A stretch of DNA of 64,000 nucleotides from an uncultured Gammaproteobacteria bacterium (GTDB lineage Bacteria; Patescibacteriota; Patescibacteriia; Magasanikbacterales; UBA922). Under the pieces are notes generated by a model. The model was not told where the DNA came from and did no database searches. It saw only the letters and a list, made by a program, of their open reading frames with translations. The stretch covers positions 59,637 through 123,636 of the forward strand of contig CAZMEW010000001.1 in assembly GCA_964565405.1 (NCBI GenBank), read 5' to 3'. Positions 7,287 to 56,174 of this stretch are shown here, in pieces (the first letter of the stretch is position 1; each line of letters begins with the position of its first letter). A program made the position numbers and the translations under genes.

Positions 7287-9605
7287 TTGATATACTTATC
7301 CATGTTCGTAATTAACATTCTTATGCAATTATATAAAAAGGCTTTTTTAGGTTTTATTTCGCTTACACTTACCCTCCCGACCCCCCTTCTTGCCGCAACA
7401 TTTGATCCTAATTACCTTATCTCTGACGAAGAGTTGCAGAATTATCAGAGCATGAACCGAGAAGATATCCAGGCATTTCTGACTGACAAGGGTGGCTATA
7501 TTGCCAACCTCTCAACACCTGATTTTGAGGGAAATAATCGACCTGTGTCTGATATTATTTATCGATCAGCAATTAATAACAAAATTAATCCTAAATACCT
7601 CTTGGTTAAACTCCAAAAAGAGCAAAGTCTGATTTCTGAAGAAAGTCCGACCCAAAAACAACTGGATTGGGCAACGGGGTATGGTGTGTGCGATAGTTGC
7701 TCCATGGATGATCCAAGTATCCAGAAATTCAAAGGTCTTGGAACACAGATCGAAAATGCTGCCGGCATTATGCGGTGGTATTATGATAATGTGAATTCGC
7801 AGGGATGGATTAAAAAACCATCAACTGCATACTTGATTGACGATGTACCTGTCACCCCTGCAAACTATGCGACTGCATTTCTCTACACCTACACTCCACA
7901 TATTCATGGAAATCTCAATTTTTGGAATCTATGGCAACAATGGTTTGACCAAGTATACCCGGATGGATCACTCATTAAGACAGCCGATAGTCCTGATGTG
8001 TATCTGATAGAAGAAGGACAAAAACGAAAATTTACCACGCTTACAGCACTCACAACACGATTTAACCCTAAATTGATTTTACTTGTTCCTTCAAGCGAGC
8101 TCGCTCGTTACCCCGATGGGCCACAAATTTCTTTACCTAATTATTCGATTGTATTTGATGGTTATAATTATTATCTTCTTGATTATGATTACAAACGTCA
8201 ATTTGCAAACGCACAAGTGGTCAAACAAATTGGCTATAACCCTGATGAAATTATCACAGTTAGCGCAAGTGATCTTGATCCATACATCCTCGGAAAGGAA
8301 ATCAGTGCTGAGACTACTGCCCCGCTCGGTCGTGTAGTTGAGGTAACTGAATCAAAAAATCAATATTTTGTTGAAGATGGGGTAATGCACCCGATTCTTG
8401 ATCCGGTTATTCTCAAGGTTAATTTTCCTCACCTAATACTAGAAAAAATTCCCGCTGCACAATTTGCAACTCTCAATCTAAAATTCGGAGAGCCTGTGCA
8501 ATTGAAAGATGGAACCGTATTTGGAATCAAGGGATTCAATGAAATCTATGTTGTTGAAAAAGGAACCAAACGACATATAGCAAGCGAAGACGTGTTCAAT
8601 GGCCTCGGATATTCGTGGAGTAATATTGTGTGGGTGAGCGAATATGTTGGAATGGCACTTCCAGCTGGCGAACCTATCTATCTAAAAACTGATAAATCCT
8701 CATCGGGCTCAGGTATTGCGACTACACCTCCTAAAACACAGTCTACGTCAGTTTCGAAAACCGAAACTGCGATACCCGCAAAACAACCTGTTGATGATAT
8801 GGTCAGGACTCCTGCTGACCAGATTTCTTTTATTGGAGAAAAGTTCGATACTGCGATTGAATCCTATGTTGTAGCGGATCCTGATACTGGTACTATTGTT
8901 GCAGGGAAAAATGTAGACACCGTGCGCCCGCTTGCTTCCCTTTCCAAACTTATGACCGCACATATACTTCTGGATCGTGGAATATCGCTAAGTGCAAGCA
9001 CGGTATACTCCGCGGTAAAGCACAGATCTGATTATCATAATTTTAATGTAGCTGAAGGTGATATACTAACGAATAAAGATATTTTATATTCAATGCTTGT
9101 TGCGTCAAACAATACCGCAGCTGTCATGCTCACTGATGCTCTCGGATACCGCCAATCTGATTTTGTAACACTCATGAATACCGAAGCTTCAACGTTAGGC
9201 CTCACTCACATGACCTTTGCTGATTCCTATGGTTACAACCCACAAAACCAAGGAACTCCACGTGAAGTGGTAACCCTATTCCGTGAGGCACTCAAAAGTG
9301 ATACTATAGCTGCAGCACTTGGTACCAGTAGATATTCGTATACCGAATCAGTAAGTACCGATGGTGTTGTCTCGCACACCGAAGTACACAGTAATGGTTT
9401 GCTCAAACGAACACTCCCCTACACCATACTAGCAAGTAAAACTGGATTCTTGTATGAATCGGGTGCATGCCTTATCATACTTGTTGAGCGACCAAGTGAC
9501 GGCAAAAAATTCCTTCTTCTCACCATGGGTAATCCCGACTTTGGCTCAGATTCACGATTTGATGAGCCGAATCGATTTGCTTCATGGGCTCTCAAAAATT
9601 TTTAA
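7287..9605 (+). CDS. secreted protein with C-terminal D-alanyl-D-alanine carboxypeptidase (peptidase S11, PBP5-like) domain
   Basis: N-terminal signal/TM segment. The C-terminal domain carries SLSK (SxxK), SNN (SxN) and SKTG (KTG) motifs. About 450 aa of the N-terminal region has no family I recognise. Confidence 0.6.
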   Translation: MIYLSMFVINILMQLYKKAFLGFISLTLTLPTPLLAATFDPNYLISDEELQNYQSMNREDIQAFLTDKGGYIANLSTPDFEGNNRPVSDIIYRSAINNKINPKYLLVKLQKEQSLISEESPTQKQLDWATGYGVCDSCSMDDPSIQKFKGLGTQIENAAGIMRWYYDNVNSQGWIKKPSTAYLIDDVPVTPANYATAFLYTYTPHIHGNLNFWNLWQQWFDQVYPDGSLIKTADSPDVYLIEEGQKRKFTTLTALTTRFNPKLILLVPSSELARYPDGPQISLPNYSIVFDGYNYYLLDYDYKRQFANAQVVKQIGYNPDEIITVSASDLDPYILGKEISAETTAPLGRVVEVTESKNQYFVEDGVMHPILDPVILKVNFPHLILEKIPAAQFATLNLKFGEPVQLKDGTVFGIKGFNEIYVVEKGTKRHIASEDVFNGLGYSWSNIVWVSEYVGMALPAGEPIYLKTDKSSSGSGIATTPPKTQSTSVSKTETAIPAKQPVDDMVRTPADQISFIGEKFDTAIESYVVADPDTGTIVAGKNVDTVRPLASLSKLMTAHILLDRGISLSASTVYSAVKHRSDYHNFNVAEGDILTNKDILYSMLVASNNTAAVMLTDALGYRQSDFVTLMNTEASTLGLTHMTFADSYGYNPQNQGTPREVVTLFREALKSDTIAAALGTSRYSYTESVSTDGVVSHTEVHSNGLLKRTLPYTILASKTGFLYESGACLIILVERPSDGKKFLLLTMGNPDFGSDSRFDEPNRFASWALKNF

Positions 9606-10411
9606 TCACGACGTATATGCCTCTCGTATTTGGAGCGATTACCCCTCATTCACCTGTACTCATTCCTGAAATCGGTACTAAAAGTCGAGAGAAAGCAACC
9701 AAGACCATTGAAGCACTGTCTACACTTGAAGAAAATCTTTATCTTGCAAAACCACATTTGGTAATTATTTTTACTCCCCACTCTCAAGCACATTCTGATA
9801 CCTTTGTAATCAATGCACACACTAATTTTAATTCCTCATTCGAAGAATTTGGCGAACACTCACTCAAGAACACCTATGAAGGATCACCCGATTTTGCAGC
9901 AAAAATTTCGCACGAAGCGAATAAACTCAATATACCTGTTAAACTAGTAAGTGAACAAAAACTTGATCACGGATCAAGTGTTCCTTTGTACGCTCTTGCA
10001 GGACATCTCGATCATATTAAAGTTCTCCCTATCAGCCCCTGTGATCTTGATCCCAAAAGTCATCTCAACTTTGGAAATCTAATCAAAGAGTTATGCATGG
10101 AATCAGATAAACGAGTCGCTGTCATTGCATCTTCGAATCTTTCACACGGTATTACTACAGATTCTCCTGCAGGATTTCGCGAAGAAGGAAAAAAGTTTGA
10201 TGAGACGTTGATTCAACTTCTCGAATCCCACAACACAAGTGGTATTGCGACACTTGATCCAGTGCTTATAGAAAACGCCGCTGAAACTGGCTATAAACCG
10301 CTCCTACTGCTTCTTGGTGCGCTCAAAAATATTAATTACGAGTTCAAGCGTCTTGCCTACGAACATCCTTTTGGCGTAGGATACCTCACCGCTGAGTTTA
10401 TTTTTTCATAA
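9584..10411 (+). CDS. class III extradiol dioxygenase (LigB/YgiD/MEMO1-like) family protein
   Basis: ITPHSPVLIP and SSNLSHG motifs resemble the His ligand regions of LigB/YgiD family proteins. The true start is probably the internal MPLVFG. Confidence 0.45.
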   Translation: MGSQKFLITTYMPLVFGAITPHSPVLIPEIGTKSREKATKTIEALSTLEENLYLAKPHLVIIFTPHSQAHSDTFVINAHTNFNSSFEEFGEHSLKNTYEGSPDFAAKISHEANKLNIPVKLVSEQKLDHGSSVPLYALAGHLDHIKVLPISPCDLDPKSHLNFGNLIKELCMESDKRVAVIASSNLSHGITTDSPAGFREEGKKFDETLIQLLESHNTSGIATLDPVLIENAAETGYKPLLLLLGALKNINYEFKRLAYEHPFGVGYLTAEFIFS

Positions 10412-10420
10412 CCTTGCCCT

Positions 10421-12337
10421 GTGATTGCTTCGATTGCACCGCTGAAGCGCTTGCCGCGGTCTTCTTCAATTTTTGATTATGCGGTCCCGCACGATCTTGA
10501 GAAAAATATACAGCCTGGACAGTTGGTTATTGTTGAATTTCGCAAAAAAAAAGAATATGGGATTGTATTGAGTACTTCCACAACCATGAATACTGATTAT
10601 GCATACAAACCCCTTGACTCAATCGTACACACCACACCTCTTTTCTTATTACAACACCGACAGTTACTTCGAGAGATTTCAATTTTGTACGGTGTTTCAA
10701 TTGCCACCTTGTGCAAAACATCGGTTCTACCATTACAAAAAAGAAAACTTAAAAAACTTGAACTCCTGCCTGACAGTGCTCCATTCTCAACAAAACCTGC
10801 CTCTTCTAATTCTTATTTTTTGTATCAAAATGAAGTTGAGCATGCGCTATTGTTTTCACAGATAAAAAATTTTCATACCACTCTCATTCTTGTTCCTGAA
10901 ATTTCAAAATTATCAAGTGTAGAAAAATTTGCAACAAATAATTCGTCAGCAAAAATTATCGTATGGAGATCCGATCTTTCTATAAAAGAAAAATTCGATT
11001 TGTGGTTACAGATCAGAAATAATACCGAACCCCTTATTGTTATTGGAACAAGAAGTGCAATCACTCTTCCCTTCACGCGTTTGGATCAAATTATCATGGA
11101 TTTTGAACATGATGAACAATACAAAAACTATGACCAACAGCCCAAATTTCATACCAGGGATATGGTCGGTATTCTTACTCGGCTCTATGCTTGTAACTGT
11201 ACGTACGCGAGTTTTTCCCCGAGTTTTGAACTCTACTATTCGATAGTCAAAGACACGTTGCTCTGTAATATGGGCACTCGCACATATACTTCTGGACTTT
11301 TGTTTACGACTCAAGGCAGAGCTGACTCTATTCGGATTATCGAGCATACACAATTTTCACAGAAAGATCAGGTTTGTTCAATTACAACCGAAGAAGCCAT
11401 CGTTACCCGCGCGCGAGAGAATACTACAGACATCGTCATACTCGTCCAGCGGAAAGGTTATGCGACCATGGTTATTTGTTCTGACTGCGGACATGTAGAA
11501 ACTTCACTAGACGCTCGACTTCCTATGATCTATCGAAAAGAAACCAAGATGATGTATGCGCCGTATAGCAGTGAAACACGCCCGCTCCCGCTCACATGCA
11601 GTGTCTGCGCATCGACCAAACTTCGACTTCAAGGTATTGGTACTGAGAAAGTTGCCACATATTTTTCCCATCTTTTCAAAAAAGAAGGTATTTCTCTTCC
11701 TGTATTTAGAATCGATGATAATACTGAATCATCAGTATTTGGACATCTTGAGAGCACTGCGCCCCGTCTACTGATCGGTACTGAAAAAGTCTTATCATAT
11801 ATCCGGTATAATCAGACTTCAATCTTTGCAATTTTAGATCTTGATCGTTTTCTCGCAATTCCTGAATATAATTCTTTTGAACATATTGTTCACCTGATTG
11901 ATGAATTCAATTACCACCGCTATGAAAATTCTCAATTACTCTTCGAAGTCTCATCGGGAGAGAAAAATATATTCAAGTTATTCGCCGAGCGTGATCGTGT
12001 TTATCGTACTGAGCTTAGTCTAAGACAAACTCTCAGTTACCCCCCATACCAAAGTATGATAAAATATACCCTATCATCAGTTTCACCTGCTCACGCTCGC
12101 ACTCTCGCGAATAATTTACGACATACTATAGCTCTCCGATTGACAGAGCACCATATACCTGCTACACTCAGCGAAATTTATGAAACCCATCCCAATTTTG
12201 AAAAAAGAAAATATTGGTATGGTATACTTCTAAAAACTGAAGCGAAATATATTCCATCAATTGCTGAGCTTCTACACCCTTTCCTACCTCGTGAATGCAT
12301 AGTCGATATCCATCCACTTTCCGTTCTTTCTCCTTAG
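10421..12337 (+). CDS. priA: primosomal protein N' (PriA) homologue with degenerate ATPase motifs
   Basis: PriA-like N-terminus (IFDYAVPHDL...GQLVIVEF...GIVL). Core blocks ILVPEI, VIGTRSAI and a DFEHDEQYK box are present, plus two CxxC pairs (CSDCGH, CSVCAS). No GxGKT Walker A is present. Confidence 0.55.
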   Translation: MIASIAPLKRLPRSSSIFDYAVPHDLEKNIQPGQLVIVEFRKKKEYGIVLSTSTTMNTDYAYKPLDSIVHTTPLFLLQHRQLLREISILYGVSIATLCKTSVLPLQKRKLKKLELLPDSAPFSTKPASSNSYFLYQNEVEHALLFSQIKNFHTTLILVPEISKLSSVEKFATNNSSAKIIVWRSDLSIKEKFDLWLQIRNNTEPLIVIGTRSAITLPFTRLDQIIMDFEHDEQYKNYDQQPKFHTRDMVGILTRLYACNCTYASFSPSFELYYSIVKDTLLCNMGTRTYTSGLLFTTQGRADSIRIIEHTQFSQKDQVCSITTEEAIVTRARENTTDIVILVQRKGYATMVICSDCGHVETSLDARLPMIYRKETKMMYAPYSSETRPLPLTCSVCASTKLRLQGIGTEKVATYFSHLFKKEGISLPVFRIDDNTESSVFGHLESTAPRLLIGTEKVLSYIRYNQTSIFAILDLDRFLAIPEYNSFEHIVHLIDEFNYHRYENSQLLFEVSSGEKNIFKLFAERDRVYRTELSLRQTLSYPPYQSMIKYTLSSVSPAHARTLANNLRHTIALRLTEHHIPATLSEIYETHPNFEKRKYWYGILLKTEAKYIPSIAELLHPFLPRECIVDIHPLSVLSP

Positions 12338-12346
12338 TTATTCTAT

Positions 12347-12847
12347 ATGCTTCCCATTGTCACCATACCAAACAAAATTCTAGAAACCCGAGCTCGAGAA
12401 CTCACACTCGCTGAAATAAATTCAGCAGAGGTCCAATCGCTTATTGATGAAATGATTCCTACGATGTATACAAGTGAAGGAATCGGTCTTGCTGCGCCCC
12501 AAGTGAATCATTCACTCAGGGTTTGTATTATTGGAAAAGAAGCAGTCAAACTCGACCGAAAAGCCAAACTTCCTCATGATGACCTCGTACTTATTAATCC
12601 AACATGGAGAAAGACCAGTAAGAAGACTAATAATGATCAAGAAGGGTGTCTCTCAATTCCCGGTGTATATGGTAAGGTAAAACGACATTCAGATATACAA
12701 GTCGAAGCACTTGATCGACAAGGTAATAAATTCTCATTTGAAGCACGGAATTTCTTTGCTCGTGTAATACAACATGAAGTCGATCATCTGGATGGGGTAC
12801 TATTCACCAGTAAAGCAACCGACGTCAAGACAATTCCCAAAACGTAA
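12347..12847 (+). CDS. def: peptide deformylase
   Basis: Motifs GIGLAAPQV, EGCLSIPG and QHEVDHLDG are present. Confidence 0.9.
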   Translation: MLPIVTIPNKILETRARELTLAEINSAEVQSLIDEMIPTMYTSEGIGLAAPQVNHSLRVCIIGKEAVKLDRKAKLPHDDLVLINPTWRKTSKKTNNDQEGCLSIPGVYGKVKRHSDIQVEALDRQGNKFSFEARNFFARVIQHEVDHLDGVLFTSKATDVKTIPKT

Positions 12848-13077: not shown

Positions 13078-13386
13078 GTGCATACCCCCAGGGGGGTATA
13101 CTTTTTGTATATGAAATACATGAACGAAGAAAATAAAGCGAAAGTTATCCGCCGACTCAAGCTTCTTGAGGGGCAAGTACGCGGGCTTCAAAAAATGGTC
13201 GAAAACGATACCTACTGTATTGATGTGATCACGCAAACATCAGCAGTAAAACAAGGTTTGTCGAATGTTGAGGACTTACTTTTGGAAAATCACCTGGATC
13301 ACTGCGTGAGTCACCAAATGAAATCCGGACAAGAAGCTAAAGCAAAGGCTGAAATTATTAAGGTGTATAAACTCAAAAGAAAATAG
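13078..13386 (+). CDS. csoR: CsoR/RcnR family copper-sensing transcriptional repressor (probable start at 13111, MKYMNEENK)
   Basis: Four-helix DUF156 pattern with the conserved metal-ligand context (YCIDV...HLDHCVSHQM). About 85% aa identity to the second copy at 45750..46031. Confidence 0.8.
   Translation: MHTPRGVYFLYMKYMNEENKAKVIRRLKLLEGQVRGLQKMVENDTYCIDVITQTSAVKQGLSNVEDLLLENHLDHCVSHQMKSGQEAKAKAEIIKVYKLKRK
13082..13099. promoter_or_regulatory. putative CsoR operator (GC-rich palindrome) overlapping csoR-I start
   Basis: ATACCCCC-AG-GGGGGTAT inverted repeat just upstream of the probable csoR start (ATG 13111). It is preceded by TTGACG (-35-like). Palindromes of the TACCC-N-GGGTA type are known CsoR sites. 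Confidence 0.5.
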
Positions 13387-13400
13387 TTTGATACACTGGT

Positions 13401-15770
13401 TTGATACATTCACCATTCATTACTATACATAGTATGTATACACAAACGTACAAAGTAAAAGGCATGCATTGTGCCTCATGCTCCTCGGTCATCGAGAAGA
13501 CGTTCAAAAAAGTTGAAGGGGTACAGTCAGCAGAGGTCAACTATGGCACTGAGAAAGCAAAAATTTCTTTTGATCCGTCAAAGACGAATCCTCACGATCT
13601 CTCCAAACACATCGAGCCGTTGGGCTATTCACTGGAGGTTCCACTCAGTGCAGGTGAAATGGGTATGTCTCCTGAAGAACATGCGGCTCACTTGGGACTT
13701 AATCAGTCAAAGAAGGAAAAGCTCGCAGAAGTTGCCGACATGAGAATTAAAGTTCTCTCAGCTACTCCTCTCGCAATTTTTGCTGCACTCGTCATGGGTT
13801 GGGACATTCTTGCAGAGTATCGCGCAGTTCCTGCAATGAGTTATACACTCAAGGAGTTCTTCCACCACCTCCTTCCTATTTTTGCGACATACATTCTCTT
13901 TGTTGTAGGCAAGCCGTATCTCCTTGGTTTTTATAGATTTCTCCGATATGGCAAGGCAAATATGGATACGCTCATTGGTATCGGAACTACTGCCGCCTTT
14001 TTATACAGTTTTGCAGTTACGGCTCTCGAGGAAACGCTGAGTCCTTTTATAAATGTTGAGTATCAATACTACGATGTGACGATCGTGGTTATTACTTTTA
14101 TCGCCCTCGGTAAGTATTTGGAAGCTCGATCGAAAATAAAGACGGGTGACGCTATAGAAAAACTTCTTAATTTGCAAGCCAAGACAGCACTGGTTATCCG
14201 CGACGGTAAAGAAGTAGAAATATCGGTCAATGAGGTAAAACATGGCGACCTGCTTATCGTGAAGCCTGGTGCAAAGATTCCCGTAGACGGCGTGATAACA
14301 GACGGCAGTTCTTTTGTTGATGAATCCATGGTCACAGGGGAACCGATGCCAGCACAGAAAAAGATTGGAGACGGTGTTGTATCGGGAACAATCAATACCA
14401 ATGGTTCGTTTACATTCAAAGCAACAAAAGTTGGATCAGAAACACTCCTCGCCCAGATCATCAAGATGGTTGAAGATGCGCAGGGGAGCAAGGCTCCAAT
14501 CCAGGCACTTGCAGACAAAATTTCTTCAGTCTTTGTACCCATTGTTTTGGTTATCGCTTTTCTCACTCTCGGTGCTTGGCTCATTGTTGGGTACCAGTAT
14601 TTAGGTTTCTCTCAAGCGCTGTCATTTGGTCTCGTTTCGTTTGTAGGCATTCTGGTCATTGCGTGTCCGTGTGCCCTCGGTCTTGCTACTCCGACGGCCA
14701 TTATCGTCGGCGTTGGGAAAGGGGCAAAAGAGGGCATTCTGATCAAAGATGCGGCAACGCTCGAAAAACTCCATAAGGTAAATACAGTTGTAGTTGATAA
14801 AACAGGTACCATAACCCGTGGCAAGCCGACGCTCGTCGATATCCAAAATTTTTCAAAGTTAAAAGACGATGAATTCATATCGATTCTGGCGTCGCTTGAA
14901 AAAAAATCAGAACATCCTATTGCTCACGCGATCTTGAACTATGCACGGGACCTGCCTGCGACTCGAGTGAGCTCGCCGAAATCCGGCAGGCAGGGAAAAA
15001 TAACTCTGCAAGAAGTCTCAAATTTTGAAGCAATACAAGGCAAAGGGCTTAAGGGGACAGTGAACGGGACAGAATATTTTATCGGAAACACAAAACTCAT
15101 AAGTCATCTAAAAGTTTCATTCGATACGACAAAATTGAATGTGTTTACTTCACAAGGCAAAACACCGGTCATTCTTGCAACATCGGAGAAAGTGCTTGGT
15201 TTTGTGATGGTTGCGGATGAAATAAAACCGGAATCAATCGAAGCAGTAAAGAATCTCCGCAAACTTGGAATCAACGTGGTTATGCTTACCGGTGATGATC
15301 AAAAAGCCGCTAAGTACATTGGGTCGCTTGTTGGCATTGATGATGTTGTTGCCCACGTGCTACCACATGATAAGCTCGAAAAGATACAAGAGCTTCAATC
15401 ACAAGGTCGAGTGGTGACTATGGCAGGTGACGGAGTAAACGATGCCCCCGCACTCGCACAAGCCGATGTAGGTATTGCGATGGGGACAGGAACTGATGTA
15501 GCGATAGAGTCGGCCGGCATCACGCTTCTTGGTGGAGATATTTCAAAGCTCGTAAAGGCAATCAAGCTCTCAAAAATAACCATGCGAGGGATTAGGCAGA
15601 ATCTCTTTTGGGCGTTTATCTATAACATCATCGGCATTCCTCTTGCTGCCGGAGTTCTGTATCCGGTATTCGGCTGGCTCCTGAATCCTGTTTTTGCCGG
15701 CTTCGCTATGGCAATGTCGAGTGTCTCTGTTGTGTCGAATTCATTACGAATAAAAAGTAAAAAGTTATAG
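13401..15770 (+). CDS. copA: copper-translocating P1B-type ATPase
   Basis: N-terminal HMA ([13 protein letters not shown]), CPC motif ([10 protein letters not shown]), DKTGTIT phosphorylation site and [11 protein letters not shown] hinge. Confidence 0.9.
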
Positions 15771-15799
15771 TGTGATACACTACTCTCTACAAATACAGT

Positions 15800-16807
15800 A
15801 TGAAAACATATACATTCCATGTTTCCGGCACGCATTGCGCTTCATGTAAAATTTTCATTGAAGATGTTTTGAATGAACACAGTGGTATACAGAACGCGCG
15901 CGTCGATTTAAAACGAGAGATTGTTGAAATTGAAACCGATAGCGATCAAAGCCCTGAAGTATTGGCCCAAGTCCTGACAGAAAAAATTAAAGCAAATGGA
16001 TACAAGGTATCGGTGGAAAAGTCTATCAGAGAAAAACAAAGTACTGACGTTATTTGGCAAGCTGTACCGATAGGGCTTGCGTTTCTCGCGGTATTCTTTC
16101 TTTTGCAAAAATCGGGAATTCTCAATCTCGGTATTGGCGGACAAACGACCCCGGTCACAAGTTTTATCATTGGTCTTATCGCCTCGGTATCAAGTTGTCT
16201 CGCCATCGTTGGCGGTTTGGTCTTGTCCCTTTCAGCCAAAGTATCTCAGGACACTGTAAGCGATACAAAAACGTTCTTGCTTTTCCATACAGGAAGATTG
16301 GTTAGTTTTGCTGTATTAGGCGGAGTTCTCGGAGCGGTCGGCAGTGCAATCGGTATCAATGTTACTTTTACGACAATTCTGGGAATTTTAGCTTCTGTTG
16401 TAATGCTATTGCTCGGTTTAAATTTAATTGGAGTGCTTGCAAAAAATAAAGTTGCGTTACCTTCAGGAATCTTTAATTTCTTCAGAAAAATGGAGCACAA
16501 GACTCTCACGCCGCTCATCATCGGCTTCGCTACATTTTTCTTGCCGTGCGGGTTTACGCAGTCAATGCAGGTTTCCGCACTAGGAAGCGGATCGTTTATG
16601 TCCGGACTTCTTATCATGTTTGCGTTTGCTCTTGGAACGTTACCAATGCTTCTACTTCTTTCTTTCGGATCCGCATCATTTGCACACGGAAAAAATGCGC
16701 CGCTATTTTTTAAATCGGCAGGAGTGGTTGTAATCGGCCTTGGATTGTTTGCACTTCTCGCTGGGCTTGCTGGGCTCGGAATTATTCCTCCGTTATTTAC
16801 TATATAA
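15800..16807 (+). CDS. HMA-domain fused to DsbD_2/UreH-like polytopic permease (putative Cu/metal transporter)
   Basis: N-terminal GTHCASCK HMA motif followed by 6-7 TM helices with an FLPCGFTQ motif. Paralogue of 42451..43443. Confidence 0.55.
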   Translation: MKTYTFHVSGTHCASCKIFIEDVLNEHSGIQNARVDLKREIVEIETDSDQSPEVLAQVLTEKIKANGYKVSVEKSIREKQSTDVIWQAVPIGLAFLAVFFLLQKSGILNLGIGGQTTPVTSFIIGLIASVSSCLAIVGGLVLSLSAKVSQDTVSDTKTFLLFHTGRLVSFAVLGGVLGAVGSAIGINVTFTTILGILASVVMLLLGLNLIGVLAKNKVALPSGIFNFFRKMEHKTLTPLIIGFATFFLPCGFTQSMQVSALGSGSFMSGLLIMFAFALGTLPMLLLLSFGSASFAHGKNAPLFFKSAGVVVIGLGLFALLAGLAGLGIIPPLFTI

Positions 16808-29089: not shown

Positions 29090-30676
29090 CTACATTCTTG
29101 GCTCGACTGCCGGCTCTGACATGGGCACAGGATTAATCACCGCGTCCTTCATAATCGTTGGGTCGTATGGCATGATATGAATCGGCTCTTCTGACTGTTT
29201 TTCAAGCTCGGTCAGCATTTCGTCTGCAAGCGGAATAATAACCGTATTCTGCCACAATCCTTCACTCTGTAGCGACTCAAAATCTTTTACATCGAGTACT
29301 AGGGCTGGGACAAAAAGTTCACTTGAGTTTCCATTACTCTCATTATACTGCCATTTTTGCATATACCCTATGCGCGCGTTTTCAAGCACTACATCAACCG
29401 TCTTCGTAGGTTCGGCATATACTGCCATTCGGCCTTTTTTAATCATTGCTTTCAGACGTGTCTCGTCAGTAACCCCTGTGTAGTCCGACCCACTAAACGT
29501 TTTAGTCATAATTCCCTCAACACCGGTTACCTTCATCTCTTTCACATTGATATTCACGCGGATCCCCATTATTCCACCATATTCCTCATATACTGGCTTA
29601 CCGTTGATCATGAATTGATACAGGACTGTATGAATATTCGAAATATAGAACTCACCCTTATCCTCTGCTCTTTCATATCCAATCTTCCAGCTGGTATCCA
29701 CTTTTCCCTCTGCATATTCACTCATATCAATTCCATATTCCGCCAAGAAGTCGTTGGCAATATTCACCAATTCACTTTCCGAAGGAACTTCATCAATAGT
29801 AATTCTGTTGGGGTCAACTCCACAACCACCCATTCTGCAATCATACTCTGTAGGGATTGCGTGCCATTTACTATAATTCTCAGAAATCGATACTACACCA
29901 CCCACCATATCCACATTTACAACGTAGCCCTGGTTCCTATCCTCAGCAAGCGAAAAATTTTGAACATATGTATTTCTTAATTTGGAGAGATCGAACACGC
30001 CTAATTGCAATTTCTGAAGTACACTCGCGTACTGTTTTGCAGCGTCAAGACCCGATTCACGTTTCAATACCTCGACAGTTTCACTCAATTGAGGAAGCTC
30101 ACCTATCAAATCAAAATCGTAATTAACGTAGACTGGGTTATAGATGAGAGAAGTCGCAGCTATTTTTGCACTCTCTCCTCCCATGCCGAATGCCATATTT
30201 GCGACCCCAGCATTGGCTTGGGCACTTTCAGCATTACCACTCGCATTCCAATTCAAGGTAATAGGATCCAGTGGACCAAAAGCATTGGCAGCAGCCTTTA
30301 CCACACGGGTACCTCTAGTAAAACTATTATCCATAACCTGTGAGGATAAATTGGAGCTCAGATAGACTACCGGAAGTGCAATTATGAGAGTTGCAAGTGC
30401 GCCACCTAATGTGTATACCAATCTGGATTTGAAAAATGAAAATATTGGTTTCTTTTCCTCCATTGATGCATGTGAGAATTTCTCAAGTACGCGTGTTTTG
30501 AGTTCACGAGCAAACTGTTCATCAAATTGCGTATTGGGTTTATTTTTTATCATACTCTCGATAATCTGTGCGATTTCTATTTCGTGGTTTCTGAGCTCAG
30601 AATCTATCATGTAGAGCTCTTCTAATATGTGCTGAATATTTTTTTCCATACTGACGACTAAATTATAGTTAAACAT
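29090..30676 (-). CDS. putative anti-sigma factor / membrane-anchored protein with large extracytoplasmic domain
   Basis: Immediately downstream of, and co-oriented with, an ECF sigma gene. About 90-aa cytoplasmic N-terminus, single TM (LGGALATLIIALPVVYL) and an extracytoplasmic domain of about 420 aa. Confidence 0.35.
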   Translation of the reverse strand: MFNYNLVVSMEKNIQHILEELYMIDSELRNHEIEIAQIIESMIKNKPNTQFDEQFARELKTRVLEKFSHASMEEKKPIFSFFKSRLVYTLGGALATLIIALPVVYLSSNLSSQVMDNSFTRGTRVVKAAANAFGPLDPITLNWNASGNAESAQANAGVANMAFGMGGESAKIAATSLIYNPVYVNYDFDLIGELPQLSETVEVLKRESGLDAAKQYASVLQKLQLGVFDLSKLRNTYVQNFSLAEDRNQGYVVNVDMVGGVVSISENYSKWHAIPTEYDCRMGGCGVDPNRITIDEVPSESELVNIANDFLAEYGIDMSEYAEGKVDTSWKIGYERAEDKGEFYISNIHTVLYQFMINGKPVYEEYGGIMGIRVNINVKEMKVTGVEGIMTKTFSGSDYTGVTDETRLKAMIKKGRMAVYAEPTKTVDVVLENARIGYMQKWQYNESNGNSSELFVPALVLDVKDFESLQSEGLWQNTVIIPLADEMLTELEKQSEEPIHIMPYDPTIMKDAVINPVPMSEPAVEPRM

Positions 30677-38686: not shown

Positions 38687-40426
38687 TCAACCCGGAACAA
38701 CGGTTTGACAATATTGTCCCGTAAATTCGGTAGGACACGAACATTCGTATTCACCATACACTCCGCCCCATGCCGGTCTCATCATGACACCATGGTTAGC
38801 GCAGAAATTGCCGACCGGATCATCTTGAACCAGGTTCATAATAATGGTGAAAGTAGTAGAAGCTGCATTGTAGTTCATAGTCGCAGCCTGGTACAATGTC
38901 GCAGTTGCGGTAAATGGTCCAGGCGTGAGTAAATTAAACAAATCAAATGCTAGCGACCCAAAATAGAATGAAGAATCTATAACGGGGTAACCGAGAACAT
39001 GTTCGACTGCTTCTGTACTAGTAGGAATCACATCGCTATTAAGTGCAGCCAACGATGTAAACAAACCATTACTGGTCGAAGTAGGAAGGTCTAGTATGAG
39101 TGCTCCGCTATCAGGCGCACAATACGGTACCGGCGTATCAGTATCTTCAAAACAAATTCCGGAGTAGTCACTCGAATCAAATGTAAAATTGCTCAATGCT
39201 GTTATAACTGGGTTAGCTTTCCCGACCGTAAGTATTGCTGTCGTTGATGTTGCGGCATACGTCGCGGTTGCCGCCTGTGTCGCAGTGATGGTGGTAGAGC
39301 CGGCATTTACCATAGTAACCGTGTTTCCACTAATCGTCGCTGTCGAGGTATTACTGCTCGTATAGGTAATCACTCCATCACTAGTACTTGTGATCGATAT
39401 AGAGAACGGACTATCTCCATATGTTTTTGATATACTTGCCAGTTCAATCGTTGGGATACTGATACAGGAGACTGAAATCGATGTAACATCGCCCTGCATT
39501 GTTCCACTGCCATTGGAAATACTGCACGTCTGTGCAGGAACTGTTGGATGGGTCTCAACAATGACTGAATAGATACTTCCTTTTGAAATACGTGAACCGA
39601 ATTCAAAGACTCCATCTGCTGTCAGTGTAAGTACTTGTCCAGTATTTAGTCGTAACACTAGAGTTCCGAGTAAGCCAGACGCTGTACCCCCAAGCGTATA
39701 GCTCTGTGATCCACCGCCCGTAAAAATACTTTCAAATGGATTTGCGAATGGCGTTGGTCCACACTGCACTTGAATCGTATTGATCGAATGATCCGCTACT
39801 ACACCACTCCCATTTTTTGACACATAGCAGAGTTGTTTGCCTGGCACGAGTGGTTTTGCTGTTACCCTATACTCATCACCCGAGGCAAGTAAGTGTGAAA
39901 AGTTGAATTGCGCTGTATCTTCAGGATGTATCATGAGTTGCTCTCCCCCATTGTTTGACACAATAACTTGATCAACAATACCCGAGATAGTTCCGCCAAT
40001 AGTATATTTATTTTTTTGTGATTGCGTCTCTGGGCTTCGTAATAATTGCCCGTACGTTAATACATCACCGGTAGTCACTGTATTTACGAGATTTCTTGTT
40101 GATGAAAAAAAATTACCTGTTCCCACTGAAAGACCAAGCGGTTCAAGAATGATACTTTGATTTAATTCTTGAAATATTTTTACAGCCCTAAATGTCTTTG
40201 TTCCAAAAAAATCTGTCTCATTTCCATGAGACCCCGGTCCTGTATCCGAAACCGGCGCACCATGGCGATTTAGGAACTCTTGCAGCCGTTGTACATCCTG
40301 ACCTTGGTCTCCGAATCGCAAATTTCTCTCGAATAATTCCTGACTGTGAACAGCACTCATCATTCCAAAAACAGAGAGTATGATAATTGTTAGGTTGATT
40401 ATCGAAAAATGGCGGTATTCGCGCAT
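38687..40426 (-). CDS. secreted protein with peptidoglycan-binding domain, Ser/Thr-rich repeats and C-terminal EGF-like Cys motif
   Basis: Signal peptide. PG_binding_1-like GDQGQDVQRLQEFLNRHGAPVSD...FGTKTFRAVKIFQ, then a long S/T-rich beta region. C-terminal YECSCPTEFTGQYCQ fits CxCx5Gx2C. Confidence 0.5.
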   Translation of the reverse strand: MREYRHFSIINLTIIILSVFGMMSAVHSQELFERNLRFGDQGQDVQRLQEFLNRHGAPVSDTGPGSHGNETDFFGTKTFRAVKIFQELNQSIILEPLGLSVGTGNFFSSTRNLVNTVTTGDVLTYGQLLRSPETQSQKNKYTIGGTISGIVDQVIVSNNGGEQLMIHPEDTAQFNFSHLLASGDEYRVTAKPLVPGKQLCYVSKNGSGVVADHSINTIQVQCGPTPFANPFESIFTGGGSQSYTLGGTASGLLGTLVLRLNTGQVLTLTADGVFEFGSRISKGSIYSVIVETHPTVPAQTCSISNGSGTMQGDVTSISVSCISIPTIELASISKTYGDSPFSISITSTSDGVITYTSSNTSTATISGNTVTMVNAGSTTITATQAATATYAATSTTAILTVGKANPVITALSNFTFDSSDYSGICFEDTDTPVPYCAPDSGALILDLPTSTSNGLFTSLAALNSDVIPTSTEAVEHVLGYPVIDSSFYFGSLAFDLFNLLTPGPFTATATLYQAATMNYNAASTTFTIIMNLVQDDPVGNFCANHGVMMRPAWGGVYGEYECSCPTEFTGQYCQTVVPG

Positions 40427-40846: not shown

Positions 40847-41728
40847 TCATTTTGACTGTTTTTCGAGGATCTCCTCCCTCTTTTTCTCAAGCTGTCCTGC
40901 TTCTAAAAGCATCTGAACGCCATTCGGAGTTTCATGCTTTTTAAGGATCGCTTCATACTCGTATTTGTCTTGCCCCTTATATCCCACTGGAATGCGTCGA
41001 ATATAGTTAGCTTCACTCCCGTTGATATAATGGAACATGTATTGATGGAATACTTGTCCAGAATCATCGGTAAAGTTCTCGAGCTTGGATGCAAAGCCAT
41101 TATCTATGTGTTGATTCATCGCAAGACAGAGAAACTCTTCTTTGCCTTTGCCATCTGCATGATCCCAGACTTCAGAGATAAGCTGTGCCCGCATCCAGAT
41201 AAAATCTCGATGCCCGTTGTTATTCATGAGTAATTCCCATGCTTGCTTACGCGCAGTTTCATTGTCACTAATAATCATCTGAATGAGCATGTTGTATATC
41301 TCATTGTATCCCATGCCTGCATATTTCCTGATCGCTGCTACACCTTTTTCATTATCCTCTCTAATTTTCTCCGCAAGAGTCGTGATTTCTTTGAATACTA
41401 CTCTATGTCTTTCTTTTTTCTCTTCAGCGGTTGCTTTGCGATGAAATACACCCCCAGGAGAATCGACGACGTATAAGAAGGCATCCTTTTTATATTCTTT
41501 AATTGAATGCGCTTCTACTTGATTAAAGGTAACAATAAAAAATGGGTTTACCTTGTCTAGGATATCTCGGTAGTTTTCGTACTCGGTATAATGAACTTCA
41601 CCAATATCGTATTCAGCGATGAGCTTAGTAAAGTACTCGTTTTCTTTGATCTGACGAGGCTTTGCTTGGGAAGTGTCTTTGAGAGGTGTGAATCCGATAA
41701 TAACCGTATGGATGGTAGGCATAGGCAT
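40847..41728 (-). CDS. hypothetical protein
   Basis: 293 aa, soluble, no motif I recognise. Confidence 0.4.
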   Translation of the reverse strand: MPMPTIHTVIIGFTPLKDTSQAKPRQIKENEYFTKLIAEYDIGEVHYTEYENYRDILDKVNPFFIVTFNQVEAHSIKEYKKDAFLYVVDSPGGVFHRKATAEEKKERHRVVFKEITTLAEKIREDNEKGVAAIRKYAGMGYNEIYNMLIQMIISDNETARKQAWELLMNNNGHRDFIWMRAQLISEVWDHADGKGKEEFLCLAMNQHIDNGFASKLENFTDDSGQVFHQYMFHYINGSEANYIRRIPVGYKGQDKYEYEAILKKHETPNGVQMLLEAGQLEKKREEILEKQSK

Positions 41729-42450: not shown

Positions 42451-43443
42451 CTATAAGATATTGATTACTCCCGTGTACATTCCCATACTACATGAGAACA
42501 CAAGTTTTCCTGGTTTGCTTGGGGCAGTAAATTCGACTACACCTTCTTCTCCTGGCGCCACGACTTTCTGTATACCAAGCTTAGGAATCGTAAATGACTG
42601 AGCACAAGTATACCCATTGATATTTTTTAAGTTTATTTTTACTTTTTCACCAGCTTTTACCGATAGACTTCTAGGGCTATATCCCGATGGGCCAATTTGA
42701 ATGGTAAGATCAGAATTTGAAGTAACTGTAGTAGAAGTTACAGGCTCTGAAGACAAATTTAGACTTGTTCCACTAAGTACAATCGCTCCTTTAAGATTGT
42801 AGAGTGCTAAGAGAATAATAGCGACAGCAGCTACTTTGAAGAACTTTTTTTGATATGCGTCACCAAGTTTGGTCGCAAAGTACCCAAGGATAAAAAACAG
42901 TGGTGAAGTTCCAAGTATAAAAGCAAAAAGTACTGCTGCACCGTACCATGGGCTTCCTGAGGCAATCGAGAGAGCCATCATACCCTGTGTAATGCCACAG
43001 GGAATAAATACCGTAAACGCACCAAGTAGGGCTGGCGCAAACATATCTTTACTCTTTGACTGATTTCGTACCAGACGCGTAAGGAATTTTGGTGGTTGAA
43101 TCACAAAATAACGAAAAAAAGGATGGACATTGAGAAGATTGAGAGCAGTACCGATCATAAAAATCGCAACTACAAACTGCATAATTGCTTGAGCCTTCAC
43201 TGAAAGCTGAAAAATTGATCCGAACCACCCAAGAAGGAAACCAAGTATTGTATAGGCGACAAGTTTTGCGGCAATAAAGAAAAGGATCGGCTTTGCATTT
43301 CCTTTATTAGCTCCTTCTTGCAGTCGTTCTTGTTCACGCTCAGCAATCGTGGTTGCCAGAAGTCCTCCTTGTACTGCGAGACACGTGAGTCCGCCGGTAA
43401 TCAGTCCTGTGAAAAAAATTACTAACAAATTTGATTGTCCCAT
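42451..43443 (-). CDS. DsbD_2/UreH-like permease fused to C-terminal cupredoxin-like domain
   Basis: TM core with FIPCGITQG (compare FLPCGFTQS in 15800..16807). C-terminal YTCAQSF...FSCSMGMYTGV is homologous to the separate ORF 16815..17210. Confidence 0.55.
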   Translation of the reverse strand: MGQSNLLVIFFTGLITGGLTCLAVQGGLLATTIAEREQERLQEGANKGNAKPILFFIAAKLVAYTILGFLLGWFGSIFQLSVKAQAIMQFVVAIFMIGTALNLLNVHPFFRYFVIQPPKFLTRLVRNQSKSKDMFAPALLGAFTVFIPCGITQGMMALSIASGSPWYGAAVLFAFILGTSPLFFILGYFATKLGDAYQKKFFKVAAVAIILLALYNLKGAIVLSGTSLNLSSEPVTSTTVTSNSDLTIQIGPSGYSPRSLSVKAGEKVKINLKNINGYTCAQSFTIPKLGIQKVVAPGEEGVVEFTAPSKPGKLVFSCSMGMYTGVINIL

Positions 43444-43453
43444 AGTGAAAATA

Positions 43454-47633: not shown

Positions 47634-48061
47634 AACCATCTTCATCAATCGCTCGACGCCAAGCACGAGAAAAGCAAGCACTCCTTGAGCAACTTACTCG
47701 GACGCCAACGATCGAGGTTGCGTGCCAAAAAGTTGGTATTGCACGCGCAACCTTCTATCGCTGGAGAAAAGCAAGCAAACAGTTTGCTCAGGATGTAGAG
47801 GAAGCACAACAACGTGGTCGAGAGTTTATAACCGATGTTGCTGAATCCAATCTGATTGCACTCATCGGTGAAAAGAAGTTTGAAGCAATCAGACTATGGC
47901 TTACCAACCACTCACCTCGATTTGCGAATAAACTTGAATTATCTGGCACGGTGAATCATACGGATGTACCACTCACCAAAGAACAGAAAGCAATTGTGAG
48001 ACAAGCGCTTAAGTTATCTAGCCTTAACACCTATGAGGCAAAACCTCCAAAAACTCGTTGA
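47630..48061 (+). CDS. phage terminase small subunit-like HTH protein
   Basis: HTH segment IEVACQKVGIARATFYRWRK. Its end overlaps the start of the large-subunit gene, as in phage packaging modules. Confidence 0.5.
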   Translation: MKPSSSIARRQAREKQALLEQLTRTPTIEVACQKVGIARATFYRWRKASKQFAQDVEEAQQRGREFITDVAESNLIALIGEKKFEAIRLWLTNHSPRFANKLELSGTVNHTDVPLTKEQKAIVRQALKLSSLNTYEAKPPKTR

Positions 48062-49469: not shown

Positions 49470-49602
49470 GTTATCAACAACTTACCTGGACTTACTAAAG
49501 AGCATGCGTCATCAGTAAACCTGGAACAAAATATGGATTGACCGACCATGCTCTTTATAGTACACTTTTTGTGCTGCCTATATTAACTGAATTTTAACCA
49601 AA

Positions 49603-50391: not shown

Positions 50392-50423
50392 TACTACTTA
50401 AGAGCGACATAAAAAGCCAAGAT

Positions 50424-51593: not shown

Positions 51594-51690
51594 AAACCAA
51601 TCAATTCAAACACCTAAGTTACCAACAGCTCGGGTCTAGACGGGCTTGGGTCGGGTGCGTCATTAATGTAGTAGTAATAACTAAGGTTAT

Positions 51691-53421: not shown

Positions 53422-53451
53422 AGTTTCTTATTTTTACTTTAAATTAACTAA

Positions 53452-54162: not shown

Positions 54163-54181
54163 ATGTCTAATTAATTTTATC

Positions 54182-55957: not shown

Positions 55958-56103
55958 AAAACACTCTACTTAATAATAGAGGGATGATGTTGAGTGGCAA
56001 CACCTAGAATGCTCCCTTGGCACTGCCAAGGGGCTGGTGTTTTGAAGAAGCTACAAACTGATGTTTTCGGATAGAGTCGGGTCACTTTCACAAGACTCAT
56101 GTG

Positions 56104-56174
56104 CTCGGGGACAGGGATTCGAACCCCGATAGTTGGGACCAAAACCCAAAGTCCTACCATTAGACGATCCCCGA
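56104..56174 (-). tRNA. tRNA-Gln (anticodon UUG), no encoded CCA
   Basis: Acceptor TCGGGGA/TCCCCGA (U1:A72, G73 as in bacterial tRNA-Gln). D-arm GTCT-AATGGTA-GGAC. Anticodon arm TTGGG-TTTTGGT-CCCAA. T-arm CGGGG-TTCGAAT-CCCTG. Confidence 0.8.

What the first reader, a model, noticed from the sequence alone, without database searches (positions are those of the whole stretch)
10421..12337. PriA homologue with apparently inactivated ATPase motifs
The protein clearly aligns to PriA. The N-terminal 3' DNA-binding region, the ILVPEI and VIGTRSA blocks, and both Zn-binding CxxC pairs are present. However, the Walker A position reads LFSQIKNFHTT instead of GxGKT, and the DEEH(D) Walker B reads DFEHD. 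A helicase-dead PriA could still serve as a primosome or replication-restart scaffold. It would, however, be an unusual reduction, perhaps linked to a streamlined genome.
Basis: seen in the sequence. Interest (0 to 1): 0.5.

Follow-up and report, generated by a model that had tools for sequence, protein, structure and literature searches.

The report
PriA replication-restart protein without its motor
This gene encodes an intact, conserved version of the bacterial replication-restart protein PriA that has lost every sequence element needed to burn ATP, and it belongs to a large, apparently undescribed family of such motor-less PriAs in ultra-small (Patescibacteria/CPR) bacteria.

Summary
The ORF at 10421-12337 (+), 638 aa with a GTG start, is a real PriA orthologue. 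It sits in the conserved priA-def slot, and its AlphaFold model (pLDDT 92) matches E. coli PriA at TM 0.81.

The quoted string 'LFSQIKNFHTT' is in the wrong register, because it aligns to the helix after the P-loop. The true site, NSYFLYQNEVEHAL, has a 3-residue turn in place of the glycine-rich loop.

The Q-motif helix, the catalytic Glu, the motif V Lys-Gly, the motif VI arginines, the winged-helix domain and the inner four of the eight zinc cysteines are also missing. The 3'-end pocket (F18, D19, Y20, K63), motifs Ia, Ib and IV, the aromatic-rich loop, the outer zinc site and the C-terminal domain are kept.

The gene is not decaying: dN/dS is 0.10-0.15. All 73 clade members at 90% clustering lack Walker A, as do 149 of the top 150 representatives at 50% clustering. 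Named members are mostly Candidatus Magasanikbacteria.

The most likely function is an ATP-independent adaptor that recognises forks and reloads the helicase, like the Deinococcus PriA pseudohelicase. This version is probably an independent origin and is more degraded.

The parts
10421..12337 (+). priA orthologue, 638 aa, GTG start, encoding a motor-less ('pseudohelicase') PriA
   Evidence: ORF. PF17764 hit. TIGR00595 scores 189 bits against a cut-off of 230. PDB PriA hits at E about 1e-31. AF2 model pLDDT 92, Foldseek TM 0.81 to 8fak_H.
10421..10735 (+). 3' DNA-binding domain (residues 1-105) with the 3'-end pocket F18, D19, Y20, K63
   Evidence: PF17764 covers residues 15-100. The pocket columns are conserved in the clade: D 63/73, Y 70/73, K 69/73. 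The role of E. coli D17, Y18 and K61 is taken from PMC5778457.
10727..10750 (+). Clade-specific basic motif LPLQKRKL (residues 103-110). It leads into a 19-residue linker (111-129), so that 24 residues (106-129) stand where the 94-residue winged-helix domain would be.
   Evidence: P104, Q106, K107, R108, K109 and L110 are at least 85% conserved. The winged-helix segment is 9 aligned residues against 94 in E. coli.
10808..10849 (+). Former motif I (Walker A) site, NSYFLYQNEVEHAL (residues 130-143): strand beta1, a 3-residue turn, then helix alpha1, with no glycine-rich loop
   Evidence: MAFFT and hhalign alignments. DSSP gives E130-134 and H138-150, against E154-158, a 6-residue GPAGSG loop and H165 in the canonical control P0103. 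Y135, E140 and H141 are conserved within the clade.
10883..10903 (+). Motif Ia, LILVPEI (kept)
   Evidence: V158, P159 and E160 are at least 90% conserved in the clade.
11039..11059 (+). Motif Ib, VIGTRSA (kept)
   Evidence: G209, T210 and R211 are at least 90% conserved.
11099..11113 (+). Degenerate motif II, DFEHD: the catalytic Glu (E. coli E321) is replaced by Phe
   Evidence: At this column the clade has Y28, D12, F11, H5, with Glu in only 3 of 73.
11120..11161 (+). Aromatic-rich loop, YKNYDQQPKFHTRD (kept)
   Evidence: K235 and P241 are invariant and D247 is nearly invariant. This loop crosslinks to the fork junction in E. coli PriA (PMC5175346).
11210..11224 (+). Altered motif III, SFSPS (canonical GSATP)
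11447..11458 (+). Motif IV, QRKG (kept; canonical NRRG)
   Evidence: R344 and G346 are nearly invariant.
11471..11620 (+). Cysteine-rich insertion with only the outer zinc site (C353, C356, C393, C396); the inner four Cys are replaced by S362, A365, A380 and S383
   Evidence: The outer Cys are invariant (71 of 71 aligned). The inner Cys are kept in 46 of 73 clade members and lost in the 24 nearest the query.
11768..11800 (+). Degenerate motif V, LLIGTEKVLSY: GT is kept, Lys-Gly is lost
   Evidence: G453 and T454 are conserved. The K544 column reads P/S/Q and the G545 column reads Y/H.
11903..11926 (+). Former motif VI, EFNYHRYE: the GRxGR arginine fingers are lost
   Evidence: The G583 column is Tyr or Phe in 65 of 73.
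12077..12334 (+). PriA C-terminal domain, ending in the conserved D629-x-x-P632 ...LSP
   Evidence: hhalign covers the protein to the C-terminus. D629 and P632 are invariant. Segment length is 85 residues against 92 in E. coli.
12347..12847 (+). def (peptide deformylase), the conserved downstream neighbour that marks the priA slot
   Evidence: PF01327, E 1.9e-50. priA-def(-fmt) is seen in L002-L012, L015 and next to the canonical Moranbacteria priA in L014.
9584..10411 (+). LigB/Memo-family gene, the conserved upstream neighbour within the clade
   Evidence: PF02900. Synteny.

Best explanation
The gene is the organism's priA orthologue, and it has become a pseudohelicase.

Shown here:
- It keeps the PriA architecture: the 3' DNA-binding domain, two RecA-like lobes, a zinc-ribbon insertion and the C-terminal domain.
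- The nucleotide site has been dismantled. The Q-motif helix is gone, the P-loop is replaced by a 3-residue turn, the catalytic Glu is Phe, and the motif V Lys-Gly and the motif VI arginine fingers are gone.
- The winged-helix domain and the inner zinc site are also absent.
- The residues that contact DNA in E. coli PriA are conserved: the 3'-end pocket, motifs Ia, Ib and IV, and the aromatic-rich loop.
- The gene is under purifying selection.

Inferred:
- The protein binds abandoned forks and D-loops without ATP. It would clamp the nascent leading-strand 3' end in the 3'BD pocket and the fork junction or template on the surface of the dead motor.
- It would then act as a landing pad that brings the replicative helicase DnaB back to the fork, directly or through a loader or SSB.
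- Any duplex unwinding that is needed would come from another enzyme, or would not be needed.
For: Identity and fold:
- PF17764 hit and PriA structure hits.
- AF2 model with pLDDT 92 and pTM 0.90. The nine best Foldseek hits are all PriA chains, with TM 0.81 to fork-bound E. coli PriA; next comes Mfd at E about 1e-8.
- hhalign of the clade profile against a canonical profile: probability 100%, E 4e-117, 615 columns.

Orthology:
- The gene sits directly upstream of def, or def-fmt, in every clade locus examined and in the canonical Moranbacteria locus.

Loss of ATPase elements:
- Motif table and column statistics.
- Regex: 0 of 73 clade proteins have a Walker A.
- DSSP: a 3-residue turn against a 6-residue P-loop in the matched canonical control, which also has an upstream Q-motif helix that the query lacks.

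Retention of DNA-binding elements.

Selection:
- dN/dS is 0.10-0.15 in unsaturated pairs, against 0.04-0.10 for neighbouring genes.
- 149 of the 150 best representatives at 50% identity lack the P-loop and are 470-680 aa long.

Precedent:
- E. coli priA300 (K230R) lacks ATPase and helicase activity but supports restart (PMC5778457).
- D. radiodurans PriA has no ATPase or helicase activity, yet binds ssDNA and forks and interacts with DnaB (PMC4504706).
Against: - There is no biochemistry for any member of this clade. DNA binding, lack of ATPase activity and partner interactions are all inferred.
- priA evolves about twice as fast as its neighbours. It shows 47-66% amino-acid identity where metG shows 75-92%, and root-to-tip depth is 2.16 against 1.21 for canonical PriAs. 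Constraint is therefore relaxed and the function may have shifted.
- I could not scan any whole genome of the clade for a second, canonical PriA, or for restart partners such as DnaB loaders, PriB, DnaT, DnaD, RecG or Rep. Only the 64-kb window was checked, and it holds none.
- In E. coli, PriA helicase activity is required in the PriA-PriC pathway. A motor-less PriA therefore implies a different or narrower set of pathways.
Confidence: 0.75

Rival explanations
1. The protein is still an ATP-driven helicase or translocase. It would use a non-canonical nucleotide site built from the clade-specific conserved residues Y135, E140, H141, E229 and Y498.
For: These positions are conserved within the clade. 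Y135 is at least 90% conserved, E140 is present in 55 of 73, H141 in 46 of 73, E229 in 69 of 73, and Tyr or Phe at 498 in 65 of 73. The former cleft is therefore not drifting freely.
Against: - There is no glycine-rich loop, no Lys-Thr/Ser, no arginine finger and no Q motif.
- The beta1-alpha1 connection is only 3 residues.
- An acidic residue sits where the phosphate-binding glycine was.
- A single K230R change is enough to abolish activity in E. coli.
Confidence: 0.04
2. The protein has taken on a new function. The PriA scaffold would be used for a role other than replication restart, such as fork protection, recombination control or DNA-end sensing. Restart would be absent or handled by another system.
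For: Evolution is accelerated and dN/dS is about twice that of neighbouring genes. The winged-helix domain and the inner zinc site, implicated in PriB contact and helicase coupling, are lost. There is a clade-specific basic motif, QKRKL.
Against: - The 3'-end pocket, the fork-junction loop and the positional orthology upstream of def-fmt are all kept.
- The experimentally studied pseudohelicase from Deinococcus retains fork binding and DnaB interaction.
- No new domain was gained.
Confidence: 0.12
3. The gene is an auxiliary paralogue. A canonical, active PriA would be encoded elsewhere in the same genomes, and this protein would modulate it or divide the work with it.
For: This was not excluded, because whole genomes could not be searched with these tools.
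Against: - The gene occupies the same priA-def-fmt slot as the canonical gene of Moranbacteria.
- No named Magasanikbacteria protein appears among the canonical hits.
- CPR genomes are small and poor in paralogues (general knowledge).
- No second PriA-like motif I..Ia pattern occurs in the 64-kb window.
Confidence: 0.07
4. The gene is a decaying pseudogene, or a sequencing or assembly artefact such as a frameshift that hides the P-loop.
For: One orthologous MAG contig (L003) does carry an internal duplication with a frame change of about 100 nt.
Against: - The reading frame is intact with no alternative-frame P-loop.
- Eight of nine independently assembled orthologous loci are intact (seven read through to the stop; L008's match stops six residues short), and all nine share the same motif state.
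- dN/dS is 0.10-0.15.
- At least 149 representatives at 50% identity share the loss.
Confidence: 0.01

Closest known systems
Canonical PriA (primosomal protein N', replication-restart SF2 helicase; E. coli and K. pneumoniae; PDB 4NL4, 6DGD, 8FAK)
   Same: - 3'BD with the D/Y/K 3'-end pocket
- Two RecA-like lobes
- Motifs Ia, Ib and IV
- Aromatic-rich loop
- Zinc-ribbon insertion in lobe 2
- C-terminal domain
- Gene position upstream of def-fmt
   Different: - No Q motif, Walker A, catalytic Glu, motif V Lys-Gly or motif VI arginines
- No winged-helix domain (9 aligned residues against 94)
- Four rather than eight zinc cysteines
- Below the curated NCBIfam cut-offs: TIGR00595 scores 189 against 230
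Deinococcus-Thermus PriA pseudohelicase (Lopper et al. 2015, PMC4504706)
   Same: It is a natural PriA orthologue with degenerate motifs I and II. That protein was shown to lack ATPase and helicase activity while keeping ssDNA and fork binding and a DnaB interaction. This is the functional model adopted here.
   Different: - A different phylum, and probably an independent origin. No Deinococcus-Thermus sequence was available, so this was not tested phylogenetically.
- According to the paper, the Deinococcus-Thermus proteins have the catalytic Lys of the GKT sequence replaced by Arg and match the motif I and II consensus poorly. Here the P-loop is physically removed and motifs Q, V and VI are erased as well.
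- Here the winged-helix domain is absent and, in the query's subclade, the inner zinc site too.
E. coli priA300 (K230R) laboratory allele
   Same: It is a PriA without ATPase, helicase or translocase activity that still assembles primosomes and supports restart through the PriA-PriB pathway (PMC5778457).
   Different: It is a single engineered substitution in an otherwise intact motor. It depends on PriB and DnaT, which are restricted to some proteobacteria (general knowledge). The protein here is a lineage-wide natural state with many motif losses.
Winged-helix-less but catalytically canonical CPR PriA (for example Candidatus Moranbacteria P0103, 669 aa)
   Same: It has the same reduced architecture without a winged-helix domain and the same priA-def-fmt context.
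   Different: It keeps GPAGSGKT, DEEQ, TQMLTKG, QVSGRSNR and all eight Cys. This shows that a small CPR genome does not by itself imply loss of the motor.

Membership tests
PriA (primosomal protein N' / replication restart protein) | N-terminal 3' DNA-binding domain with the 3'-end pocket (E. coli D17, Y18, K61) | tested here: met
   PF17764 scores 47.3 bits against a cut-off of 22.7. F18, D19, Y20 and K63 are conserved. Pocket residues are taken from PMC5778457.
PriA (primosomal protein N' / replication restart protein) | Overall fold: two RecA-like lobes, a zinc-ribbon insertion and a C-terminal domain | tested here: met
   AF2 model pLDDT 92. Foldseek TM 0.81 to 8fak_H and TM 0.71 to 6dcr, the winged-helix-deletion PriA. 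hhalign E 4e-117 over 615 columns.
PriA (primosomal protein N' / replication restart protein) | SF2 ATPase/helicase motifs Q, I (GxGKT), II (DExH) and VI (GRxGR) | tested here: not met
   All are absent or degenerate.
PriA (primosomal protein N' / replication restart protein) | Cysteine-rich region with eight Cys binding two Zn (CxxC x4) | tested here: not met
   Only the outer two CxxC pairs remain in the query. 46 of 73 clade relatives keep all eight.
PriA (primosomal protein N' / replication restart protein) | Winged-helix DNA-binding domain between the 3'BD and the helicase core | tested here: not met
   9 aligned residues against 94. The domain is also absent from canonical CPR PriAs, so it is not universal to the family.
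PriA (primosomal protein N' / replication restart protein) | Score above the curated equivalog cut-offs (TIGR00595 / PRK05580 models) | tested here: not met
   TIGR00595 scores 189.4 against 230.35. The best PRK05580 model scores 237.9 against 813. Close relatives are named 'hypothetical protein' at NCBI.
PriA (primosomal protein N' / replication restart protein) | Positional orthology: the gene lies immediately upstream of def(-fmt) | tested here: met
   Seen in the window, in L002-L012 and L015, and in the canonical Moranbacteria locus L014.
PriA pseudohelicase (functional class defined on D. radiodurans PriA) | Clearly descended from PriA, with motifs I and II incompatible with ATP hydrolysis | tested here: met
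PriA pseudohelicase (functional class defined on D. radiodurans PriA) | No measurable ATPase or helicase activity | not testable with these tools
   This needs purified protein. It is inferred from the motif loss.
PriA pseudohelicase (functional class defined on D. radiodurans PriA) | Retained ssDNA and fork binding, and interaction with DnaB | not testable with these tools
   Only the conservation of DNA-contact residues could be shown.
Deinococcus-Thermus PriA clade (phylogenetic membership) | Branches with the Deinococcus-Thermus PriAs, in which the catalytic Lys of GKT is replaced by Arg | not tested
The published motif description differs from the P-loop removal seen here, and named clade members are all Patescibacteria.

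The most novel reading that the evidence does not exclude
A large branch of the Patescibacteria, centred on Candidatus Magasanikbacteria and comprising at least 149 protein clusters at 50% identity, has run replication restart for a long evolutionary time with a PriA whose motor was dismantled stepwise.
- The first step removed the nucleotide site, and is shared by all members.
- A later step removed the inner zinc site, in the query's subclade only.
- The former ATP cleft was refilled by a conserved Tyr/Glu/His/Tyr set. This set may hold the two lobes in a fixed, DNA-competent conformation.

Three further unrelated Walker-A-less PriA lineages were seen here, and the Deinococcus-Thermus case is already published. 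Together these would make loss of the PriA motor a recurrent evolutionary outcome. They would also support the view that PriA's indispensable role is structure-specific helicase loading rather than unwinding.
Probability: 0.45. Interest if true: 0.55.

Novelty: new variant of a known kind. Interest (0 to 1): 0.4.

Why it matters

This clade is a second natural example. It is probably independent, it is much larger, and it is more extreme. It therefore gives a ready-made separation-of-function series: motor site gone, winged-helix domain gone, inner zinc site present or absent. That series can be used to ask which PriA surfaces are enough for fork recognition and helicase reloading.

The result also bears on how ultra-small, host-dependent bacteria maintain replication with a minimal toolkit.

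There is an annotation gap as well. Curated PriA models miss the family, and close relatives are deposited as 'hypothetical protein'.

Tried and rejected
- An exact look-up of the window's own protein (P0001) in the contig index found nothing, so the source record and organism name were not recovered. Cluster membership gave no name either.
- The search for related loci with the 67-sequence alignment failed because no conserved stretch was available. The 17-sequence alignment worked but returned only 9 loci, which used the single genome scan. No complete clade genome could therefore be searched for a second PriA or for restart partners.
- The homologue search seeded with the canonical CPR PriA (P0103) returned only close Moranbacteria and Parcubacteria relatives. 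It did not show whether Magasanikbacteria also hold a canonical copy.
- I tried to check the SSB-tail pocket using residue numbers recalled from memory (82, 86, 370, 697, 701). They did not map to the expected residues in E. coli PriA, so I dropped the test.
- The afdb50 fold library was unavailable.
- Model coordinates are not exposed, so contacts in the former ATP cleft could not be measured.
- The dN/dS values for the DD-carboxypeptidase neighbour in pairs involving L006 and L007 were artefacts of mis-framed HSP coordinates and were ignored.
- My Walker A regex missed one canonical representative (P0391, EVTGSGKT). This was caught in the alignment, so the count is 149 of 150, not 150 of 150.
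- Full-text searches for PriA with Patescibacteria or with candidate phyla radiation found no paper describing this family. A further search on PriA, replication restart and Walker A surfaced no such description in its listed hits either.
Full report
**What is at the coordinates.** 10421..12337 (+) is one uninterrupted ORF of 638 aa with a GTG start. It begins 10 nt after a LigB/Memo-family gene and ends 10 nt before peptide deformylase (def). The wider neighbourhood is housekeeping: metG, rsmI, a DD-carboxypeptidase, LigB/Memo, this gene, def, a tRNA, then csoR-copA. GC content is about 40% throughout, with no compositional break.

**Is it PriA?** Yes.
- Pfam finds the PriA 3' DNA-binding domain: PF17764, 47.3 bits against a cut-off of 22.7.
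- phmmer against PDB sequences returns only PriA chains, with E about 1e-31 over query residues 144-570.
- An AlphaFold2 model built on 67 relatives is confident: pLDDT 92, pTM 0.90.
- The nine best Foldseek matches to that model are all PriA chains. The top hit is fork-bound E. coli PriA, 8fak_H, at TM 0.81. The second is the winged-helix-deletion PriA, 6dcr. After these there is a large gap to Mfd, RecQ and RecG.
- A profile-profile alignment of the clade against canonical PriAs gives probability 100%, E 4e-117 and 615 aligned columns, from the first strand of the 3'BD to the C-terminal D-x-x-P.
- The curated NCBIfam equivalogs are nevertheless not reached (TIGR00595 scores 189 bits against 230). 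Several close relatives are deposited as 'hypothetical protein'.

LILVPEI (155-161), VIGTRSA (207-213) and DFEHD (227-231) are as described.
- The string quoted as the Walker A position, LFSQIKNFHTT (144-154), is in the wrong register. HMMER aligns it without gaps to E. coli 238-248, LENVLAQGKQA, which lies after the P-loop.
- The real motif I site is 130-143, NSYFLYQNEVEHAL.
- In the model, strand 130-134 joins helix 138-150 through a 3-residue turn. In a matched control model of a canonical CPR PriA (P0103), strand 154-158 is followed by the 6-residue GPAGSG loop, and the helix starts at the Walker lysine. That control also has an upstream helix carrying the LTxEQ (Q) motif, which the query lacks.
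- No Walker A pattern exists anywhere in the protein, nor in any of the six frames of the locus. A hidden frameshift is therefore excluded.
The inner four cysteine positions are S362, A365, A380 and S383.

**Full inventory of what is lost and what is kept**.
- Lost:
  - the Q motif;
  - Walker A;
  - the catalytic Glu of DExH (Phe here; Y, D, F or H across the clade);
  - SAT of motif III (now S-F-S);
  - Lys-Gly of motif V;
  - GRxGR of motif VI;
  - the whole winged-helix domain (9 aligned residues against 94);
  - the inner zinc site.
- Kept:
  - the 3'-end pocket F18, D19, Y20 and K63. The corresponding E. coli residues D17, Y18 and K61 contact the terminal nucleotide (PMC5778457);
  - motif Ia (VPE), motif Ib (GTR) and motif IV (R-x-G);
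  - GT of motif V;
  - the aromatic-rich loop, with K235 and P241 invariant. This loop crosslinks to the fork junction in E. coli PriA (PMC5175346);
  - the outer four Cys, which are invariant;
  - the C-terminal domain.
- In short, the DNA-contacting elements survive and the nucleotide-contacting elements do not.
- The old cleft is not random. Y135, E140, H141, E229 and Y/F498 are conserved within the clade.

**Is the gene alive?** Yes.
- Nine independently assembled orthologous loci at 47-66% identity were retrieved. Eight are intact; seven of these read through to the stop and L008's match stops six residues short of the C-terminus.
- Pairwise dN/dS in unsaturated comparisons is 0.10-0.15.
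- This is about twice the value for the flanking genes (0.04-0.10). priA is also the most divergent gene of the syntenic block, at 47-66% identity against 75-92% for metG.
- In a neighbour-joining tree the clade's root-to-tip depth is 2.16, against 1.21 for canonical PriAs.
- Constraint is therefore relaxed but clearly present.

**Orthologue or paralogue?**
- The block DD-carboxypeptidase - LigB/Memo - priA - def is conserved in all loci examined, down to 27-32% identity. metG and rsmI lie upstream in the closer relatives. Several loci, including the more distant ones (L011, L012, L015), also have fmt directly after def.
- A canonical, motif-intact Moranbacteria priA sits in the same priA-def-fmt slot.
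- This argues that the gene is the positional orthologue of priA and not an extra copy.
- I could not scan a whole clade genome for a second PriA. The 64-kb window has none.

**How widespread is it?**
- In the word-indexed search, hits P0001-P0073 (about 520-670 aa, 26-100% identity) all lack Walker A. By contrast, 42 of the 47 remaining hits have it.
- Named clade members are Candidatus Magasanikbacteria (six). There are also three 'Patescibacteria group', one 'Parcubacteria group' and one partial 'Peregrinibacteria'.
- The 67 full-length clade members are monophyletic in the NJ tree.
- A profile of the clade separates members (574-886 bits) from the best canonical PriA (404 bits).
- The exhaustive search of 1.84 billion representatives at 50% identity lists 150 proteins at 495-855 bits. 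149 of them lack the P-loop. The one exception, P0391, is a canonical winged-helix-less PriA. The list is truncated while still inside the family.
- 134 of those 150 keep all eight Cys. In the first hit set, 46 of 73 do, and the 24 without the inner Cys are almost all the query's closest relatives: the 22 nearest hits plus two more distant ones.
- Loss of the nucleotide site therefore preceded loss of the inner zinc site.
- E. coli C445 and C448 variants keep ATPase activity but lose helicase activity (PMC5778457). Losing that site after the motor died is therefore plausible.
- One canonical PriA (P0110) also lacks the inner Cys, so the two losses are not strictly coupled.

**Mechanism (inferred).**
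- E. coli priA300 (K230R) has no ATPase, helicase or translocase activity, yet behaves nearly like wild type and assembles primosomes. Helicase activity is needed only in some pathways (PMC5778457).
- D. radiodurans PriA, the one characterised natural pseudohelicase, does not hydrolyse ATP or unwind forks. It binds ssDNA and forks with near-E. coli affinity and interacts with DnaB (PMC4504706).
- By analogy, and given the pattern of retained residues, the protein here most likely does three things. It recognises abandoned forks or D-loops through the 3'-end pocket. It contacts the junction or template with the dead-motor surface. It then recruits the replicative helicase without consuming ATP.
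- The partners are unknown, and no replication gene lies in the window.

**Comparison with what is known, and novelty.**
- The concept of a PriA pseudohelicase is published for Deinococcus-Thermus.
- The review literature treats that group as the sole exception.
- Full-text searches for PriA with Patescibacteria or CPR found no description of this family.
- Against the Deinococcus case, this clade is from another phylum and removes the P-loop physically. In the Deinococcus-Thermus proteins the catalytic Lys of GKT is replaced by Arg. This clade also erases motifs Q, V and VI, lacks the winged-helix domain and, in the query's subclade, has a single zinc site.
- I file it as a new variant of a known kind.
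- Genome streamlining alone does not explain it, because Moranbacteria keep the motor.

**Verdict.** Interest is moderate: this is a large natural separation-of-function family for a well-studied protein, but it rests on sequence and predicted structure only.

Noticed in passing
proteins P0084, P0092, P0089/P0096 (hits): Three further PriA lineages lack Walker A and motif VI. P0084 is Candidatus Acetothermia, 701 aa, with the winged-helix domain present. P0092 is 787 aa, also with the domain present. P0089 and P0096 are 644 aa and lack the domain. Each is closer to canonical PriAs (33-36% identity) than to the clade described here (26-28%), which suggests independent losses of the motor.
   Followed up: partly
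protein P0110 (hit): This PriA has intact ATPase motifs, but its cysteine-rich region has only the outer four Cys (CCDTSSCC). Loss of the inner zinc site therefore also occurs without loss of the motor.
   Followed up: no
L003 3439-5504 (CAZCHJ010000043.1): The priA orthologue in this MAG contig has an internal duplication of about 100 nt, repeating residues 541-558 with a frame change. It is either an assembly artefact or a disrupted copy.
   Followed up: partly
window 46362-56174: This stretch holds an N6/N4 DNA methylase (46362-47633), a large serine recombinase (51691-52986), a DUF4238/SEC-C protein (50424-51593) and a UvrD-like SF1 helicase (54182-55957), ending at a tRNA (56104-56174). 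It looks like an integrated mobile element or defence island at a tRNA.
   Followed up: no
window 13078-16807 and 42451-45748: There are two CopA-type P1B copper ATPases, each next to a DsbD_2-family membrane protein. The first pair is preceded by a CsoR-type repressor, and the second DsbD_2 protein is fused to a cupredoxin-like domain. That is a notable investment in copper handling for a small genome.
   Followed up: no
L012 10824-12742 (JAGOQR010000004.1): A Pif1-family helicase and a GIY-YIG protein lie 3 kb downstream of priA-def-fmt in a distant clade member.
   Followed up: no
L002-L005, L008, L009 record titles: Several MAG records that carry the Magasanikbacteria-type syntenic block are titled 'uncultured Gammaproteobacteria bacterium'. 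This is apparently a placeholder or mislabelled taxonomy.
   Followed up: no
window 38687-40426, 29090-30676, 48033-49469, 40847-41728: Four sizeable ORFs (579, 528, 478 and 293 aa) have no Pfam match at E of 1e-5 or better.
   Followed up: no
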